The position numbers and the translations under genes were made by a program. Shown here piece after piece: positions 36,691 to 61,352 of a stretch of 64,000 nucleotides of DNA. The DNA comes from a virus (Duplodnaviria; Caudoviricetes). The stretch is from positions 256,001 to 320,000 of IMG/VR virus record IMGVR_UViG_3300005512_000001; one strand, given 5' to 3'. Position 1 is the first letter of the stretch. Every line of letters begins with the position of its first letter. The notes beneath the pieces are model-generated. The model saw only the letters and a list, made by a program, of their open reading frames with translations. It was not told the DNA's origin and ran no database searches.

Positions 36691-37215
36691 TTAATCCTGC
36701 ATGTCTTTAATCATGTGCATAATTTCTTGTTCAGTTATTGTAATTATGCGGTCGATTCCTTCATCGATGTGGGGCTCTTCATATTGCTTTTTATGAGCTT
36801 CAGCAATCTTTAACCATTCATCATACCCCCACCCCCTGCCATCGGAATTCGCTCTGCGTGCAGCATGTGCCTCTAGGGCTGATTCTGGAAATTTAATTAC
36901 GTGCACTACGGCGTCCATTGATTTAGCTATTCCAATATACCGCCTTCGCATTGCCCTTGAATAATTGGGCCTGTCAATAATCACGTTGCGTCTTAACAAC
37001 AATGCCATCTGCAAAATCGTATTTTCTACGGATTTATATAGTGGCTTTAAATGCTCATCATATAATTTATAATTATCGCAATGTAATGCGTTAACAATAG
37101 CATCATCATTTATTATAATGCTACCGTATTTTGAAAACTGACGTGAATAAGTGCTTTTGCCACTAGCAATAGGGCCAACAAGAATTCTAACTATCGGACT
37201 CTGCAATTGTGTCAT
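36691..37215 (-). CDS. AAA_33/polynucleotide-kinase-like P-loop kinase
   Basis: LVGPIASGKST, INDDAI, VIIDRPN...RRRY, EEP..DEG. Confidence 0.8.
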   Translation of the reverse strand: MTQLQSPIVRILVGPIASGKSTYSRQFSKYGSIIINDDAIVNALHCDNYKLYDEHLKPLYKSVENTILQMALLLRRNVIIDRPNYSRAMRRRYIGIAKSMDAVVHVIKFPESALEAHAARRANSDGRGWGYDEWLKIAEAHKKQYEEPHIDEGIDRIITITEQEIMHMIKDMQD

Positions 37216-55108: not shown

Positions 55109-55191
55109 GTTGTCTTCGAACAACGAGCGTCGCATAATGTGGCGACGATTGCGTTGTATTTAATTTTCCCCTTTGAGAAAGGTGGTGTGTG

Positions 55192-56499
55192 ATGAGGACG
55201 AATGTAAAGAACAAGTACGCCGAGAAGACGCACGAGGGTGCACCTGCTGCAAGGTTGAACGCCGAACAGGAATTGCGAAGGTCTGTTATGTCGTGCCTTT
55301 TGTGGGAGAGAACCTTCTACGAGAATGGCGTGGGCATCGCAGAGCGGATCGCTGATTTAGTGCCGCACGTAGCACCAGAAAAGGTCGCTGCGATGGCAAT
55401 CGAGGCACGTAGCGATATGAACTTGCGACACGCCCCGTTGTGGTTGGTCCGTTCGATGGCGGCTACCAAGACGCACAGGAGTTTGGTCGCTGATACGCTG
55501 GAAGCAGTAATTCAGCGTCCAGACGAACTGACTGAGTTCTTGTCTCTGTACTGGAATGGCAAGAAGACACCGCTTGCGGCTCAGGTCAAGAAGGGATTAG
55601 CAAGAGCATTCCGTAAGTTCGACGCTTATCGGTTGGCGAAGTACAATAGGGACAATGCCATCAAGCTTCGCGATGTCCTGTTCCTGACTCACGCCAAGCC
55701 AAAGGATGCCGAGCAGGCTGCAGTTTGGAAGAAGCTGGTCGATGGCACCTTGGAAGCCCCAGATACTTGGGAAGTTGCACTTTCGAGTGGTGCGGATAAG
55801 CAAGGTTCTTGGACCAGATTGCTTGAGGAAGGGAAGCTTGGTGCCTTTGCGTTGCTGAGGAACTTACGCAATATGCAGAAAGCAGATGTCGATGAGGACT
55901 TAATCAAAGACGCATTGGCCAAGGCTGATGTTTCCAGGATTTTGCCATTCCGATTCATCGCAGCTGCTCGTTATGCACCAGATTTTGAACCTGCTCTTGA
56001 GAAGGCGTTATTCAGGAGCTTGGAATCTCAGAAGCTTGTTGGTAAGACCATCGTATTGGTCGATGTTTCTGGTTCTATGAACTGGGAGCTTAGTTCGAAG
56101 TCCGATATGTTACGGATGGACGCGGCCTGCGGTCTTGCGATGGTATTGAGGGAATTGTGCGACGATATTAAAGTGTTCAGTTTCTCAACCCGCACTGCCA
56201 AGGTACCGGCCCGCAGAGGTTTTGCGCTACGTGATGCAATCGTAAGGTCGCAGCGGCATAGCGGAACTTATCTTGGTGGGGCAGTTGACACCGCCAATAA
56301 AGAGAAGTACGACCGATTGGTGGTAATCACGGATGAGCAGTCGCACGATGTTGTGCCATCGCCAAAGAGCCGTGGATACATGATTAATGTTTCGTCGGAC
56401 AAAAATGGAGTTGGATACGGTGATTGGACTCGCATTACCGGATGGAGCGAAGCGGTTGTGCGATATGTAATGGAACTTGAAAACGCCAAGTTCGTGTAG
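55192..56499 (+). CDS. rsr: Ro60/Rsr-like TROVE + vWA RNA-binding protein
   Basis: THEGAPA, LLWERTFYE, IQRPDELTEF, YRLAKY, LRDVLFLTHAKP, TWEVALS, ALLRNLRNM, LPFRF, DVSGSM, VITDEQ. Confidence 0.93.
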   Translation: MRTNVKNKYAEKTHEGAPAARLNAEQELRRSVMSCLLWERTFYENGVGIAERIADLVPHVAPEKVAAMAIEARSDMNLRHAPLWLVRSMAATKTHRSLVADTLEAVIQRPDELTEFLSLYWNGKKTPLAAQVKKGLARAFRKFDAYRLAKYNRDNAIKLRDVLFLTHAKPKDAEQAAVWKKLVDGTLEAPDTWEVALSSGADKQGSWTRLLEEGKLGAFALLRNLRNMQKADVDEDLIKDALAKADVSRILPFRFIAAARYAPDFEPALEKALFRSLESQKLVGKTIVLVDVSGSMNWELSSKSDMLRMDAACGLAMVLRELCDDIKVFSFSTRTAKVPARRGFALRDAIVRSQRHSGTYLGGAVDTANKEKYDRLVVITDEQSHDVVPSPKSRGYMINVSSDKNGVGYGDWTRITGWSEAVVRYVMELENAKFV

Positions 56500-56503
56500 T
56501 ATT

Positions 56504-56766
56504 TGACAATTAGTAGAGGCGACCGACGCTTAAGTCGGTAGGACGTGCTGTGAGGCAGCGACAGGTAGGTACGCCTGTTACACTACCTCCGACTCCATCA
56601 ACGCAGATGGTTTAGGGAGGGAGCGAAAAGACCCGTAAAGGGAGACACAGCCAGGTCTGTCAGTCAGGGATGGGTGAGTATGACACCCACACAGTACCTT
56701 ATGGCTTAGACAGTAGGGAATGCGTTACCCGAGATCCCGATAAAGCTGCCCATCTATTAGTTGTCG
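56504..56766 (+). ncRNA. Unidentified ~263-nt multi-stem structured RNA
   Basis: 14-bp closing stem TGACAATTAGTAGA/TCTATTAGTTGTCG enclosing at least six hairpins. Confidence 0.65.
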
Positions 56767-56981
56767 CTAAATGGAGAGTTGTCATGAACAAAGACGAGTT
56801 TCACAAAAGACAGCAGGGTTATCGCTTCTGGTTAGTATTGGGCGGTATGGCGGCTTCAATTTTGGGCTTGGAAGATATGGAGTTCGGCTTGTGCTAGGTT
56901 GGATTTCGATTTTCCTGGCCACTGTTGATTTGGACTACGTATTGAGTTTGTCTACGAAGCAAAACGCAGAACAATGATATT

Positions 56982-57118
56982 CCAACGATGGTGTAGGTGA
57001 CAGTTACTTCGATTTAGGATCGAGTGGTTGTGGGTTCGAATCCCACCCGCCCTTAATCGGGGCGGTAGCTCAATTGGCAGAGCGCTAAAACTTTCTGTTG
57101 CCGCCTGTTCCTCGTTGG
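56982..57118 (+). ncRNA. Y-RNA-like unit 1: scaffold + permuted tRNA with UAG anticodon arm
   Basis: CCAACGA/TCGTTGG; GGTGACAG/CTGTTGCC; anticodon arm, T arm, closed acceptor hairpin, D arm in that order. Confidence 0.85.
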
Positions 57119-57131
57119 TACTTTTGAGATT

Positions 57132-57198
57132 AACCGATGGTGAAGAATACGGCTACTTCTATTTAAGAACCAAACCCGTGTTCGCTTGTTCCTCGGTT
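57132..57198 (+). ncRNA. Y-RNA-like unit 2: minimal scaffold
   Basis: AACCGA/TCGGTT; GAATACGG/CCGTGTTC; conserved GATGGTGAAG, TACTTC, GCTTGTTCCTC. Confidence 0.75.
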
Positions 57199-57210
57199 TT
57201 TCATAAAGTT

Positions 57211-57297
57211 GGTTGATGGTGTAGGAATCGGTTACTTCTACCAAAACCGGCCTCAAAAGCTGGTACTTGAAAAACCGATTTCGCATGTTCCTCAACC
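57211..57297 (+). ncRNA. Y-RNA-like unit 3: scaffold + isolated CAA anticodon-like stem-loop
   Basis: GGTTGA/TCAACC; GGAATCGGTT/AACCGATTTC; ACCGGC-CTCAAAA-GCTGGT. Confidence 0.78.
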
Positions 57298-57304
57298 TAC
57301 AATC

Positions 57305-57445
57305 ATAGCTGATGGTGTAGGATACGGTTACTTCGACTTGTAATCGAGAGGTTGCGGGTTCGAATCCCGTCCATTTGTCGAGAGACATTTGGTAGCTCAA
57401 CTGGTAGAGCGCTAAAATTTCCGTTTCCGCTTGTTCCTCGGCTAT
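57305..57445 (+). ncRNA. Y-RNA-like unit 4: scaffold + permuted tRNA with UGU anticodon arm
   Basis: ATAGCTGA/TCGGCTAT; TTCGA-CTTGTAA-TCGAG; T arm; GAGA-capped acceptor hairpin; D arm. Confidence 0.85.
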
Positions 57446-57452
57446 TCATTAT

Positions 57453-57596
57453 TTAGTTGATGGTGTAGAGAACAGTTACTTCTATAAAACGGTAGGTTAC
57501 AGGTTTCGAGCCCTGTCCGCCTCAATGAGGCGGTAGCTCAACTGGAAGAGCAATCGTGGCATAAGCCAAGTCTGTTTTCGCCTGTTCCTCAACTAA
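57453..57596 (+). ncRNA. Y-RNA-like unit 5: YrlA-like (T arm, acceptor hairpin, D arm, no anticodon loop)
   Basis: TTAGTTGA/TCAACTAA; GAGAACAG/CTGTTTTC; CCGCCTC-AAT-GAGGCGG; TAGCTCAACTGGAAGAGC. Confidence 0.82.
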
Positions 57597-57603
57597 TTAT
57601 TTT

Positions 57604-57725
57604 GCTGCGTTAGCTCAATAGGTAGAGTGCTGGGACCTTTATCCCAGGTATGAGGAGTCGCAACTTCGTTGGTCCTAGGCACCGGGTGTTGTTGTTGGCT
57701 TAAGGTTCGAATCCCTCACGCAGCA
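57604..57725 (+). ncRNA. Aberrant tRNA-like RNA with ~50-nt variable region and non-canonical anticodon loop
   Basis: GCTGCGT/ACGCAGC acceptor; D arm; CTGGGA-CCTTTA-TCCCAG; GGTTCGAATCC. Confidence 0.65.
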
Positions 57726-60037: not shown

Positions 60038-60110
60038 GCTAACGTAGCTCAACTGGTAGAGCACGGATTTCGTAAATCCGAGGTTGTGGGTTCGAATCCC
60101 ACTGTTAGCT
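60038..60110 (+). tRNA. tRNA-Thr(CGT)
   Basis: CGGAT-TTCGTAA-ATCCG. Confidence 0.94.
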
Positions 60111-60113
60111 TTT

Positions 60114-60213
60114 GCCGCCATAGTTCCAATGGTAGAATGCGCCCATTAAGCAAGCCTAACAAGAAGTGGCGATAGTCGGGGTGAGGTTGCGGGTTCGAAT
60201 CCCGCTGGTGGCT
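60114..60213 (+). tRNA. tRNA body with a ~34-nt sequence in place of the anticodon loop (intron-like or tRNA-like ncRNA)
   Basis: GCCGCCA/TGGTGGC; D arm; CGCCC...GGGTG; AGGTT; GCGGG-TTCGAAT-CCCGC. Confidence 0.7.
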
Positions 60214-60233
60214 TAGAGAAAATATAAATTATT

Positions 60234-60305
60234 GCCGATGTAACTCAGTGGTAGAGTGCGTTCTTGGTAAGAACGAAGCCATGGGTTCAAATCCCATCAT
60301 CGGCT
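60234..60305 (+). tRNA. tRNA-Thr(GGT)
   Basis: CGTTC-TTGGTAA-GAACG. Confidence 0.94.
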
Positions 60306-60306
60306 T

Positions 60307-60380
60307 GGGCCTTTAGCTCAGTTGGTCAGAGCAGCGCACTCATAATGCGTCGGTCGTAGGTTCAAGTCCTACAAGGCCCA
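60307..60380 (+). tRNA. tRNA(CAT), Ile2-like or Met
   Basis: GCGCA-CTCATAA-TGCGT; GGGCCT acceptor. Confidence 0.92.
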
Positions 60381-60385
60381 TTTTT

Positions 60386-60459
60386 AGACCTGTAGCTCAA
60401 TTGGTCAGAGCATACCCCTTATAAGGGTAAGGTTGGCGGTTCGAATCCGCCTAGGTCTA
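60386..60459 (+). tRNA. tRNA-Ile(TAT)
   Basis: TACCC-CTTATAA-GGGTA. Confidence 0.9.
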
Positions 60460-60484: not shown

Positions 60485-60569
60485 GCCGGGATCGCATAGT
60501 GGCCGATTGCACTGGTTTTGTAAACCAGAGGGCGTGTGCCCCGCGTGGGTTCGAATCCCACTCTCGGCT
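60485..60569 (+). tRNA. tRNA-Thr(TGT) with long variable arm
   Basis: CTGGT-TTTGTAA-ACCAG; GGGC-GTGT-GCCC variable hairpin. Confidence 0.85.
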
Positions 60570-60845: not shown

Positions 60846-61352
60846 ATGATGCAGAAAACGTTTGTGATGATTAAGCCTGATGCAGTGCAACGTGGTTTGG
60901 TTGGTGAGATAATCACAAGGTTTGAAAATAAAGGTCTAAAGCTGGTCGGACTTAAATTAATGCTGGTTGACACCGATGCTGCAAAACGATTGTATAAATA
61001 CCATAAAGGCCGATCATATTACGACGACCTTATAGCCTTCACAACATCGTCGCCAGTGGTGGTAATTGTCTTAGAGGGAAACGATGTGGTACGAGTCGTT
61101 AGGCGGATGCTCGGAGATACTAGTGGCGTCGATGCCTCTGCTGGCACTATTCGTGGCGACTATAGTGTTAGCCGCACTAATAGAAATTTAGTACACGCAT
61201 CAGATAGTGTTAAATGTGCTAAATTCGAATTTGAAATATTCTTTGACGATTTATTAGAATACACAAAATGTAATGAGCAGTGGTTGTATTCTGATAAAGA
61301 TAAAGGTGTTTTAGAGTTAGGCCAGAAGCCTGTCGAGCCGGTGCAGGAATAA
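60846..61352 (+). CDS. ndk: Nucleoside diphosphate kinase
   Basis: TFVMIKPDAVQRGLVGEII; GTIRGDY; NLVHASDS. Confidence 0.95.
   Translation: MMQKTFVMIKPDAVQRGLVGEIITRFENKGLKLVGLKLMLVDTDAAKRLYKYHKGRSYYDDLIAFTTSSPVVVIVLEGNDVVRVVRRMLGDTSGVDASAGTIRGDYSVSRTNRNLVHASDSVKCAKFEFEIFFDDLLEYTKCNEQWLYSDKDKGVLELGQKPVEPVQE

What the first reader, a model, noticed from the sequence alone, without database searches (positions are those of the whole stretch)
57008..57348. The Y-like RNAs display intact anticodon stem-loops (UAG, CAA, UGU): possible decoys for anticodon nucleases
Seen: units 1 and 4 contain all four tRNA arms in permuted order: anticodon arm, 5-nt variable loop, T arm, acceptor stem closed by a loop, then D arm. 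Their 7-nt loops are TTCGA-TTTAGGA-TCGAG (UAG, Leu-type, 57015-17) and TTCGA-CTTGTAA-TCGAG (UGU, Thr-type, 57339-41). The scaffold is therefore grafted at the D/anticodon junction instead of replacing the anticodon arm. Unit 3 carries only ACCGGC-CTCAAAA-GCTGGT (CAA, Leu-type, 57254-56). Unit 2 has TTTAAGA (UAA-type) at the aligned position but without a matching stem. Unit 5 has the YrlA-like layout (ACGGT/ATCGT stem, no anticodon loop). A looped acceptor end cannot be aminoacylated unless it is cut. Inference: these are non-chargeable anticodon presenters tethered to Ro60. They could act as decoys for host anticodon nucleases used in anti-phage defence, ligands for synthetases or ribosomes, or precursors for processing.
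Basis: partly seen in the sequence, partly recalled or inferred. Interest (0 to 1): 0.88.

Follow-up and report, generated by a model that had tools for sequence, protein, structure and literature searches.

The report
Phage Y RNAs keeping anticodon arms
Next to its Ro60 gene, a 341-kb phage encodes five Y RNAs; two are complete, closed-ended tRNA look-alikes that keep an anticodon-type hairpin, a feature shared by many phage and bacterial YrlA RNAs and previously drawn as a 'variable' stem-loop.

Summary
Units 1 and 4 of the five-unit Y-RNA array after the Ro60 gene each carry, in order:
- a 5-bp stem with a 7-nt loop (UAG, UGU);
- a canonical 5-nt variable loop;
- a T arm;
- a loop-closed acceptor stem;
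- a D arm.

The design is widespread rather than peculiar to this phage. A DNA pattern for the hairpin found 55 viral contigs, 49 with a TROVE gene beside it. In bacterial Ro60 loci chosen by protein alone, 45 of the 66 with a model match have such a unit.

Across about 90 distinct units:
- U33 and purine-37 are nearly invariant.
- The loop-closing pair covaries.
- The 15:48 and 26:44 tertiary partners covary.
- The triplet 34-36 changes about five times faster than any other site class.

The hairpin is not unknown. Chen et al. 2014 drew it as the less-conserved 'V' stem-loop of YrlA and equated it with the variable arm. What I add is the anticodon-arm reading.

A decoding role is unlikely:
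- acceptor ends are capped;
- some triplets start with A34;
- Leu, Ser and Tyr triplets sit on class I bodies.

The decoy idea is untested. It is weakened because chromosomal bacterial loci carry the same arm.

The scan has noted Ro60/Y-like arrays on other DNA before, but not this reading.

The parts
55189..56499 (+). Ro60/Rsr orthologue (436 aa; TROVE plus vWA domain)
   Evidence: Pfam TROVE, E 5.5e-18, with Ro60 vWA and VWA_2 matches below their cut-offs. It is 58-65% identical to Ro60 of Acidobacteriota and Alphaproteobacteria.
56984..57121 (+). Y unit 1: Ro-binding scaffold with a complete closed tRNA mimic. GGTGTAGG 56990-97; 3' strand CCTGTTCCTC 57105-14.
   Evidence: Repeat families D1-D4; fold; model R1 93.0 bits, though the unit is part of that model's seed; Rfam YrlA 42.9 bits against a gathering score of 69.
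57008..57024 (+). Unit 1 anticodon-type hairpin TTCGA-TTTAGGA-TCGAG (U33, UAG, G37, A38)
   Evidence: Sequence; the same frame occurs in 55 viral contigs.
57025..57084 (+). Unit 1 variable loop (57025-29), T arm (57030-46), 7-bp loop-closed acceptor stem (57047-65), TA, D arm (57068-83) and G26
   Evidence: Covariation of the T, acceptor and D helices on 52 sequences, 97.3% of cells paired, 0 of 500 shuffles as high. A15 pairs with U48, as for the Levitt pair.
57133..57200 (+). Y unit 2: scaffold with a short cargo and no tRNA module
57212..57298 (+). Y unit 3: scaffold with a single 6-bp/7-nt hairpin (57246-64, loop CTCAAAA)
   Evidence: Fold z-score -3.95. Similar hairpin-only short units occur in L005, L020, L009 and L057.
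57308..57445 (+). Y unit 4: Ro-binding scaffold with a complete closed tRNA mimic. GGTGTAGG 57314-21; 3' strand CTTGTTCCTC 57430-39.
   Evidence: 88.7 bits. ARAGORN and Rfam miscall 57306-57379 as tRNA-Thr(tgt).
57332..57348 (+). Unit 4 anticodon-type hairpin TTCGA-CTTGTAA-TCGAG (C32, U33, UGU, A37, A38)
   Evidence: Sequence. The identical hairpin occurs in Xanthomonas phage 10KY502B (L001) and in 7 further viral contigs.
57349..57411 (+). Unit 4 variable loop, T arm (57354-70), GAGA-capped acceptor hairpin (57371-92), D arm (57395-57410) and G26
57456..57596 (+). Y unit 5: classical YrlA layout. The scaffold continues the anticodon stem (ACGGT 57489-93 with ATCGT 57553-57) and there is no anticodon loop.
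   Evidence: Rfam YrlA 31.6 bits over the full model; R1 46.9 bits with only 2 of 5 hairpin pairs.

Best explanation
Identity. These are YrlA-class Y RNAs of a jumbo phage. In each unit the 5' and 3' ends pair into the Ro60-binding scaffold, marked by a GGYGNAG motif, a covarying inner stem and YUAY. The cargo differs between units.

In units 1 and 4 the cargo is a full-length tRNA mimic, in the order anticodon arm, 5-nt variable loop, T arm, acceptor stem closed by a loop, D arm. This is the order expected if the RNA derives from the 3' two-thirds of one tRNA fused to the 5' third of the next.

How I think it is built. The hairpin that the YrlA literature calls 'V' sits where the anticodon arm sits. 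It stacks on the 26-44 pair and the D stem, and the Ro60-binding helix leaves through the 26/27 gap.

What selection keeps. It keeps the frame of an anticodon loop: 5 bp, 7 nt, Y32, U33, R37 and A/C38. The triplet is left free.

What it does. As transcribed, the RNA is not a decoding tRNA. It is a tRNA-shaped handle through which the Ro60 particle meets a host factor that recognises whole tRNAs, anticodon loop included.

Shown here: the anatomy, the conservation and covariation, the linkage to Ro60, and the spread in phages and bacteria.

Inferred: Ro60 binding, the 3D stacking, and that the partner is a tRNA-binding protein. The partner's identity is unknown.
For: Anatomy and repeats.

Linkage to Ro60: the TROVE gene lies 485 nt upstream on the same strand. 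Of 55 viral contigs found by the RNA pattern alone, 49 have a TROVE gene beside the unit. In bacterial loci the units lie upstream of Ro60 on the same strand.

Helices: T, acceptor and D stems covary. On the bacterial alignment the hairpin stem is 91% paired, and 4 of its 5 pairs show changes on both sides. Among the 51 anticodon-like bacterial units the loop-closing pair is C-G 33, A-U 10, U-A 4, G-C 4.

Loop frame:
- U33 in 59 of 59 pattern-found matches, purine-37 in 58 of 59, A38 in 58 of 59.
- U33 in 48 of 51 and R37 in 49 of 51 bacterial units.
- G37 goes with G36 (p 5e-7 viral; p 1.4e-4 bacterial).

Position of the hairpin:
- It is followed at once by NGGUY.
- Levitt pair 15:48 is G:C 35, A:U 16, with 1 exception, and 38 of 38 in bacteria.
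- 26:44 is G-A or A-U (p 2e-4; p 0.035).

Free triplet: 31 different triplets in 90 units. Among pairs of units that differ by 12% or less elsewhere, the triplet differs at 59% per site, against 4-13% for every other site class.

Not decoding:
- Acceptor stems are mostly 6-8 bp, and 23 of 32 tetraloop caps are GNRA or UNCG.
- Triplets starting with A34 occur (AUU, ACU, AUC, AUG).
- Leu, Ser and Tyr triplets sit on bodies with a 5-nt variable loop.
- The phage already has canonical tRNAs for UAG, UGU and CAA.

Literature:
- YrlA family features, and the V stem-loop after YUAY (PMC4201824).
- The tRNA-dimer origin model (bioRxiv 10.1101/312249).
- A phage Ro60 with its Y-like RNAs assembles with host PNPase (PMC12135203).
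Against: - No transcript, end-mapping, Ro60-binding or probing data exist for this phage.
- Rfam's YrlA model scores the units below its gathering score (42.9, 33.1 and 31.6 against 69).
- The published reading of the same hairpin is a variable arm, with the scaffold as the anticodon stem. Only the 26:44 association and the NGGUY loop argue for my reading. The 26:44 signal is modest in bacteria (p 0.035), and its phylogenetic independence could not be resolved on so short an alignment.
- The 5' strand of the hairpin (UUC) is conserved even in units that lack the hairpin. Part of the stem's conservation may therefore belong to the scaffold.
- Unit 4's tRNA-like fold is not its predicted minimum-energy fold.
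- A fast-changing triplet fits neutrality as well as it fits function.
Confidence: 0.68

Rival explanations
1. Decoys for anticodon nucleases. The Ro60-tethered anticodon loops soak up, or are cut instead of, the tRNAs targeted by host anti-phage tRNases. A panel of triplets covers different nucleases.
For: - The units present an authentic anticodon-loop frame with many different triplets, including types known from established knowledge to be nuclease targets: GUN (Asn, His, Asp, Tyr), UUU (Lys) and Arg.
- The array sits inside a phage tRNA island.
- A Ro60-like phage protein counters a defence system, Ppl, in phage Bas63 (PMC11482910).
- Triplets turn over very fast, as expected in an arms race.
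Against: - The same arm, with equally varied triplets, is routine in chromosomal rsr loci of free-living bacteria. A phage counter-defence role is therefore not needed to explain it.
- No RtcB, Rnl1-type or Rnl2-type RNA ligase was found in the phage, so no ligase for resealing cut loops is encoded by the phage.
- Several triplets (AUU, ACU, AUG) match no natural tRNA, so they would be poor decoys.
- There is no experimental link.
Confidence: 0.12
2. Precursors of two-piece, CCA-ended tRNA-like molecules. RNase P cuts at the 5' side of the acceptor 5' strand, the 3' end is trimmed and CCA is added or exposed. The product has a free acceptor end and an anticodon arm and might be charged or enter the ribosome.
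For: - M. smegmatis YrlA is cut by RNase P in vitro and carries added CCA in vivo. The authors ascribe this to its 7-bp acceptor stem (PMC4201824).
- Seven contiguous pairs is the commonest acceptor length here (32 of 89), and unit 1 has 7.
- Six alphaproteobacterial relatives encode N-CCA in the acceptor loop directly after a 7-bp stem; in five the loop is exactly N-CCA-U.
Against: - The window's own units encode no CCA. Unit 4's acceptor stem is interrupted and capped by GAGA.
- Most caps are stable GNRA or UNCG tetraloops.
- One near-constant body carries 31 triplets. These include A34 triplets, and Leu, Ser and Tyr triplets without the long variable arm, so cognate charging is implausible.
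- Canonical phage tRNAs already cover the same anticodons.
Confidence: 0.1
3. The hairpin is only the 'V' (variable-arm) stem-loop of YrlA, as published, or a vestige of the ancestral tRNA. Its anticodon-like look is inherited and has no role of its own.
For: - Chen et al. 2014 model it as the variable arm.
- Many units in the same arrays have it shortened to 2-4-nt loops or lack it altogether, for example unit 5 and Salmonella YrlA.
- The triplet behaves as unconstrained.
Against: - The stem pairing, the 7-nt length, U33 and R37 persist across Ro60 proteins as little as 27-30% identical to the window's and in bacteria. Meanwhile the T and acceptor stems have turned over by compensatory change.
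- The loop-closing pair covaries.
- A variable arm followed by five further nucleotides of the form NGGUY would be unlike any class II tRNA (established tRNA knowledge).
- 26:44 covaries with the nucleotide just after the hairpin.
Confidence: 0.18
4. Unit 4 is an ordinary tRNA-Thr(UGU) gene, as ARAGORN and the Rfam tRNA model call it.
For: ARAGORN calls 57306-57379 tRNA-Thr(tgt). The Rfam tRNA model gives 30.8 bits against a gathering score of 29.
Against: - That reading has no proper D arm and a mismatched acceptor stem (alignment).
- A perfect D arm and the complementary acceptor strand lie downstream, in permuted order.
- The flanks are the Y scaffold shared by all five units.
- The permuted model scores 88.7 bits.
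- A separate tRNA-Thr(tgt) call (85 nt, long variable arm) lies at window 60485-60569.
Confidence: 0.02

Closest known systems
YrlA (Y RNA-like A) of bacteria and mycobacteriophages: Rfam RF02553; Chen et al. 2014, PMC4201824; Salmonella YrlA structure, Wang et al. 2018, bioRxiv 10.1101/312249
   Same: - Encoded within 4 kb of Ro60 on the same strand.
- A 5' GNCGAA-like motif, and a conserved YUAY.
- Permuted T arm, loop-closed acceptor stem and D arm.
- Levitt-pair covariation.
- A stem-loop ('V') between YUAY and the T arm in many members.
- Several Y RNAs per locus.
   Different: - The units score below Rfam's gathering cut-off, and the scaffold sequence differs from the Salmonella/actinobacterial model.
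- In the crystallised Salmonella YrlA the scaffold continues the anticodon stem and there is no anticodon loop.
- Here the hairpin has the full anticodon-arm signature and abuts a canonical 5-nt variable loop, so I read it as the anticodon arm, not a variable arm.
Ro60-Y RNA particles that recruit PNPase: D. radiodurans RYPER, and Thermus phage phiLo Ro60 with Yrl1/Yrl2 (PMC12135203)
   Same: A phage-encoded Ro60 with several Y-like RNAs encoded beside it. The Y RNA has two modules, one that binds Ro60 and one that carries the effector-binding part.
   Different: The paper's text, as searched, mentions no tRNA-like domain or anticodon for the phiLo Yrl RNAs. The partner of the tRNA-like module here is unknown.
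[quoted passage not shown]
   Same: The 3' part of a tRNA lies upstream of the 5' part, joined through the acceptor ends. All four arms are present.
   Different: Those genes are processed through a circular intermediate into ordinary decoding tRNAs, using a bulge-helix-bulge junction and the splicing endonuclease (established knowledge). Here the junction is a conserved Ro60-binding scaffold shared with units that have no tRNA parts. The acceptor is tetraloop-capped, and the triplets include non-decoding ones.
tmRNA and viral tRNA-like structures
   Same: tRNA mimicry used outside ordinary decoding.
   Different: Those have a free CCA end and are aminoacylated, and they mimic rather than keep the anticodon arm. 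The units here are closed at the acceptor end and keep a literal anticodon-type loop.

Membership tests
YrlA-type Y RNA (criteria of Chen et al. 2014) | Encoded within about 4 kb of a Ro60/TROVE gene, on the same strand | tested here: met
   Ro60 is at 55189-56499 (+) and the units at 56984-57596 (+). The same holds in 49 of 55 viral contigs and in the bacterial loci.
YrlA-type Y RNA (criteria of Chen et al. 2014) | GNCGAAN0-1G motif near the 5' end (presumed Ro60 contact) | tested here: inconclusive
   The window has GGTGTAGG, GGTGAAGA and GGTGTAGA. Relatives have GGCGAAGA, GGCGTAGA and GGTGAAGA. This is a degenerate GGYGNAG version, and binding was not tested.
YrlA-type Y RNA (criteria of Chen et al. 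2014) | T arm, loop-closed acceptor-like stem and D arm in that order, with tRNA tertiary partners | tested here: met
   Covariation of the three helices. Levitt pair 15:48 holds in 51 of 52 sequences.
YrlA-type Y RNA (criteria of Chen et al. 2014) | Conserved YUAY before the V region | tested here: met
   GTTAC, containing UUAC, is invariant in the 48 pattern-found units. It is GTTAC, GATAC or GTTCC in bacteria.
YrlA-type Y RNA (Rfam RF02553) | Score at or above the curated gathering score (69 bits) | tested here: not met
   42.9, 33.1 and 31.6 bits. The model matches the tRNA-like core but not this scaffold.
YrlA-type Y RNA | Bound by Ro60/Rsr in vivo | not testable with these tools
   Needs immunoprecipitation or EMSA.
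Canonical tRNA | Free 5' and 3' acceptor ends with the D arm 5' of the anticodon arm | tested here: not met
   The acceptor strands are joined by a 5-nt loop (unit 1) or a GAGA-capped stem (unit 4). The D arm lies 3' of the T arm.
Canonical tRNA | Anticodon arm: 5-bp stem, 7-nt loop, U33, purine 37 | tested here: met
   Units 1 and 4.
Permuted tRNA gene processed to a decoding tRNA | Processing junction, maturation to a CCA-ended tRNA, and a triplet and body that fit one amino acid | tested here: not met
   The window's units encode no CCA. A34 triplets, and Leu/Ser/Tyr triplets on class I bodies, occur in the family. The processing itself cannot be tested here.

The most novel reading that the evidence does not exclude
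The 'V' stem-loop of a large branch of YrlA RNAs is a working anticodon stem-loop. On this reading, Ro60 particles of phages and bacteria display complete tRNA mimics with a conserved U-turn frame and a rapidly diversifying triplet.

They would serve as bait, sensor or decoy for enzymes that act on anticodon loops, such as anticodon nucleases or position-37 modification enzymes.

In the members with a 7-bp acceptor stem and an N-CCA loop, RNase P cleavage could instead turn them into Ro60-tethered, two-piece, CCA-ended tRNAs.
Probability: 0.2. Interest if true: 0.85.

Novelty: new member of a known kind. Interest (0 to 1): 0.5.

Why it matters
**The open question.** What the tRNA-like domain of bacterial Y RNAs binds has been open since 2014. 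The published view is that the partner reads the tRNA elbow and that YrlA has no anticodon loop.

**What this changes.** A large branch of the family, in phages and in chromosomal loci, keeps a selected anticodon-loop frame with a free triplet. That widens the candidate partners to proteins that read whole tRNAs. It also gives simple mutants to test: changes at U33, R37 or loop length, and triplet swaps.

**A practical point.** These units are miscalled as tRNA genes: tRNA-Thr here by ARAGORN and in Xanthomonas phage 10KY502B, and tRNA-Leu and tRNA-Ile in Gordonia phage Boopy. This inflates phage tRNA counts.

Tried and rejected
**Rfam.** The gathering scan of the window returned only tRNA matches. 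At the E-value threshold YrlA matched units 1, 4 and 5 below the cut-off.

**tRNA-Thr call.** I rejected the ARAGORN and Rfam call for unit 4.

**Tree test of the G36-G37 coupling.** The alignment is too short (83 columns): no well-supported branches and only one usable independent pair, so there is no verdict. The association rests on Fisher tests in two separate samples.

**Pairing of YUAY with the segment after the D arm.** I looked by eye for covariation that would favour the variable-arm model. Only a UA/UA match is general. GAUA/UAUC against GUUA/UAGC appears in Bradyrhizobium alone. Inconclusive.

**RNA-repair context.** I found no RtcB or Rnl2-type ligase. The Rnl1 search gave no match either, but it also found nothing in any control genome, so it is uninformative. 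Only P-loop kinase (AAA_33) matches turned up.

**Conserved neighbour gene as a candidate partner.** Clustering the ORFs of the fetched loci (all but the two GenBank loci L001 and L002) gave only Ro60 and antisense artefacts. A BCS1-like AAA ATPase appears in 11 bacterial loci.

**Promoter and terminator scan.** Counts were near chance.

**Literature I could not read.** Sim & Wolin 2018 (PMC6047535), the 2020 Annual Review (PMC10870794) and the supplements of Chen 2014. An anticodon-arm reading may be stated there.

**Literature searches.** Terms covering YrlA, Y RNA, phage and anticodon found no paper that describes the hairpin as an anticodon arm.
Full report
**Setting**

The window is bases 256001-320000 of a 341,434-bp phage genome with direct terminal repeats. 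It holds a tRNA island: ARAGORN tRNAs in the window and 44 in the genome.

ORF 55189-56499 (+) is a Ro60/Rsr orthologue. It matches TROVE at E 5.5e-18 and has a vWA domain. It is 58-65% identical to Ro60 of Acidobacteriota and Alphaproteobacteria.

Five tandem units follow it at 56984-57596. They share a 5' block (GATGGTGNAG ... GGTTACTTC) and a 3' block (CGCNTGTTCCTC). Each folds with its ends paired.

**Checking the observation**

Units 1 and 4 read, 5' to 3':
- scaffold strand, then GTTAC;
- a 5-bp stem TTCGA/TCGAG around a 7-nt loop (TTTAGGA in unit 1, CTTGTAA in unit 4);
- a 5-nt loop (TGGTT, AGGTT);
- a T arm with a TTCGAAT loop;
- an acceptor stem whose two strands are joined by a loop;
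- TA, then a textbook D arm, then G;
- the scaffold's return strand.

Unit 5 has the classical YrlA wiring, with no closed hairpin. Unit 3 has only one 6-bp/7-nt hairpin. Unit 2 has neither.

Rfam's YrlA model sees units 1, 4 and 5 only below its cut-off (42.9, 33.1 and 31.6 bits against 69). ARAGORN and the Rfam tRNA model miscall unit 4 as tRNA-Thr, because the anticodon-type hairpin and T arm look like a tRNA's 3' part.

For unit 1 the single-sequence minimum-energy fold gives the tRNA-like fold. For unit 4 it does not: the tRNA-like fold is 4.2 kcal/mol above the minimum. The case for unit 4 therefore rests on comparison.

**How general it is**

BLAST found related units beside Ro60-like genes in several named phages:
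- Xanthomonas and Xylella phages;
- Gordonia phages Boopy, Forza and Sixama;
- Caulobacter phage CcrColossus;
- Mycobacterium phage Nappy.

Read directly, the hairpins are:
- Xanthomonas phage 10KY502B: the identical UGU hairpin, plus a Glu-like unit (CUC) with a Glu-type D arm;
- Boopy: UGG and GAU hairpins;
- an IMG/VR contig: UUG;
- Nappy: a 3-bp version with loop AUUGUAA.

The pattern GTTACTTCGA-N7-TCGAG-N-GGT, which says nothing about Ro60, hit 55 viral contigs. In 49 of them a TROVE-like gene lies beside the hit.

I built a covariance model from 52 units. I then ran it on 80 bacterial loci chosen only by Ro60 protein similarity. It found high-scoring units upstream of Ro60 on the same strand in Bradyrhizobium, Hyphomonadaceae, Acidobacteriota and others. 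Of the 66 loci with a match, 45 have at least one unit with a stem of 4 or 5 pairs and a 7-nt loop.

The arm is therefore a family trait and is not special to phages.

**Is the hairpin an anticodon arm?**

*The stem forms.* In the bacterial alignment the stem is 91% paired, and 4 of its 5 pairs show changes on both sides. Among the 51 anticodon-like bacterial units the loop-closing pair is C-G 33, A-U 10, U-A 4, G-C 4.

*The loop frame is kept.*
- U33 in 59 of 59 viral matches, purine-37 in 58 of 59, A38 in 58 of 59.
- In bacteria, C32 in 46 of 51, U33 in 48 of 51, R37 in 49 of 51.
- G37 occurs almost only after G36 (viral 7 of 7, p 5e-7; bacterial p 1.4e-4). Real tRNAs show the same coupling (established tRNA knowledge).

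*The hairpin abuts a canonical variable loop.* This loop is AGGTC, AGGTT or TGGTY. Its last base covaries with D-loop position 15, as for the Levitt pair: G:C 35, A:U 16, one exception, p 1.6e-12. In bacteria it holds in 38 of 38. Its first base covaries with the base after the D stem, as for 26:44: G-A 35, A-U 7, p 2e-4. In bacteria this is weaker, p 0.035.

*The triplet is free.* There are 31 different triplets in 90 distinct units. Among 497 pairs of units that differ by 12% or less elsewhere, the per-site differences are:

| Site class | Difference per site |
|---|---|
| Triplet 34-36 | 59% |
| Positions 32, 33, 37, 38 | 13% |
| T stem | 12% |
| Variable loop | 9% |
| T loop | 8% |
| Hairpin stem | 4% |
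| YUAY | 2% |

**What the literature already says**

Chen et al. 2014 define YrlA by these features:
- closeness to Ro60;
- a GNCGAAN0-1G motif;
- T, AS and D stem-loops;

They equate V with the tRNA variable arm and the Y stem with the anticodon stem.

Wang et al. 2018 state that Salmonella YrlA 'lacks the anticodon loop'. They cite a model in which YrlA arose from a dimeric tRNA transcript. A retained anticodon arm from the upstream tRNA fits that model well.

In the papers I could search or read, I found no statement that V carries an anticodon-loop signature. Two reviews and the 2014 supplements were not available.

**Function**

Decoding is unlikely:
- Acceptor stems are mostly 6-8 bp, and 23 of 32 four-base caps are GNRA or UNCG.
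- One near-constant body carries triplets that no bacterial tRNA uses (AUU, ACU, AUC, AUG). It also carries Leu, Ser and Tyr triplets without a long variable arm.
- The phage has canonical tRNAs for UAG, UGU and CAA.

The best-supported reading is a Ro60-bound, full-length tRNA mimic that serves as a handle for a tRNA-binding partner, with the anticodon-loop fold as part of what is recognised.

The decoy idea remains possible but untested. It is weakened by the chromosomal bacterial occurrence. I also found no RNA ligase in the phage (the Rnl1 search is uninformative).

A processing route cannot be excluded for relatives. M. smegmatis YrlA is cut by RNase P and gains CCA. Six alphaproteobacterial units encode N-CCA in the acceptor loop after a 7-bp stem. 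The window's own units encode no CCA.

No conserved neighbour gene points to a partner.

**Verdict**

- The structural reading is supported, and applies to a large part of the YrlA family.
- The arm itself was already drawn in 2014 under another name.
- The proposed decoy function is speculative.

The RNAs are new, sub-threshold members of a known family. The added value is the anticodon-arm re-reading, with its constant frame and free triplet, and the annotation warning.

Noticed in passing
window 56500-56775 (+): A roughly 270-nt non-coding stretch lies between the Ro60 stop codon and the Y array. It folds into a long closed structure (-95.7 kcal/mol, z-score -3.2). It has no Rfam match at E up to 10 and no look-alike in any fetched locus or elsewhere in the phage genome.
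   Followed up: partly
window 57604-57725 (+): A tRNA-like gene starts 8 nt after unit 5. It has a perfect acceptor stem and D arm, a 6- or 8-nt 'anticodon' loop, a variable region of about 50 nt and a weak T stem. The Rfam tRNA model gives 35.8 bits, and ARAGORN does not call it.
   Followed up: no
L001 2504-2571 (Xanthomonas phage 10KY502B); L002 2778-2845 and 2964-3052 (Gordonia phage Boopy): GenBank annotates these as tRNA-Thr, tRNA-Ile and tRNA-Leu. They are in fact the anticodon-type hairpin plus T arm of permuted Y units beside the Ro-like gene. In most other records the units are unannotated.
   Followed up: partly
L118 1985, L121 2279, L131 2145, L139 2192, L142 2237, L145 2241 (unit start positions): Alphaproteobacterial YrlA units (Bradyrhizobium, Rhizomicrobium, Hyphomonas) have a 7-bp acceptor stem whose loop begins with N-CCA. 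In five it is exactly N-CCA-U; in L121 it is GCCATCTT. This looks like a tRNA 3' end with encoded CCA and a short spacer before the next tRNA's 5' end.
   Followed up: partly
L005 about 2534, L020 about 2326, L009 about 2880, L057 about 6575: Short-cargo Y units whose only cargo is a 5-bp/7-nt hairpin with an anticodon-loop signature (CUUUUAA, UUUGUAA, CUCUAAA), like unit 3 of the window. Other short units carry only a T arm.
   Followed up: partly
window 60072-60146, 60171-60265, 60334-60412: Closely spaced canonical tRNAs give moderate false matches (38-40 bits) to a permuted-tRNA model, because the 3' part of one tRNA plus the 5' part of the next imitates the YrlA order. This is a caution for any search, and an illustration of the tRNA-dimer origin idea.
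   Followed up: no
window 36838-37185 (-); genome 326193-326432 (+) and 184886-185233 (+): P-loop kinase (AAA_33) matches. The one at 326193 lies in a 317-aa frame, about the size of a polynucleotide kinase-phosphatase. I detected no RtcB or Rnl2-type RNA ligase in the genome, and the Rnl1 search was uninformative.
   Followed up: no
window 60846-61352 (+): A nucleoside diphosphate kinase gene (Pfam NDK, E 7e-48) sits inside the tRNA island.
   Followed up: no
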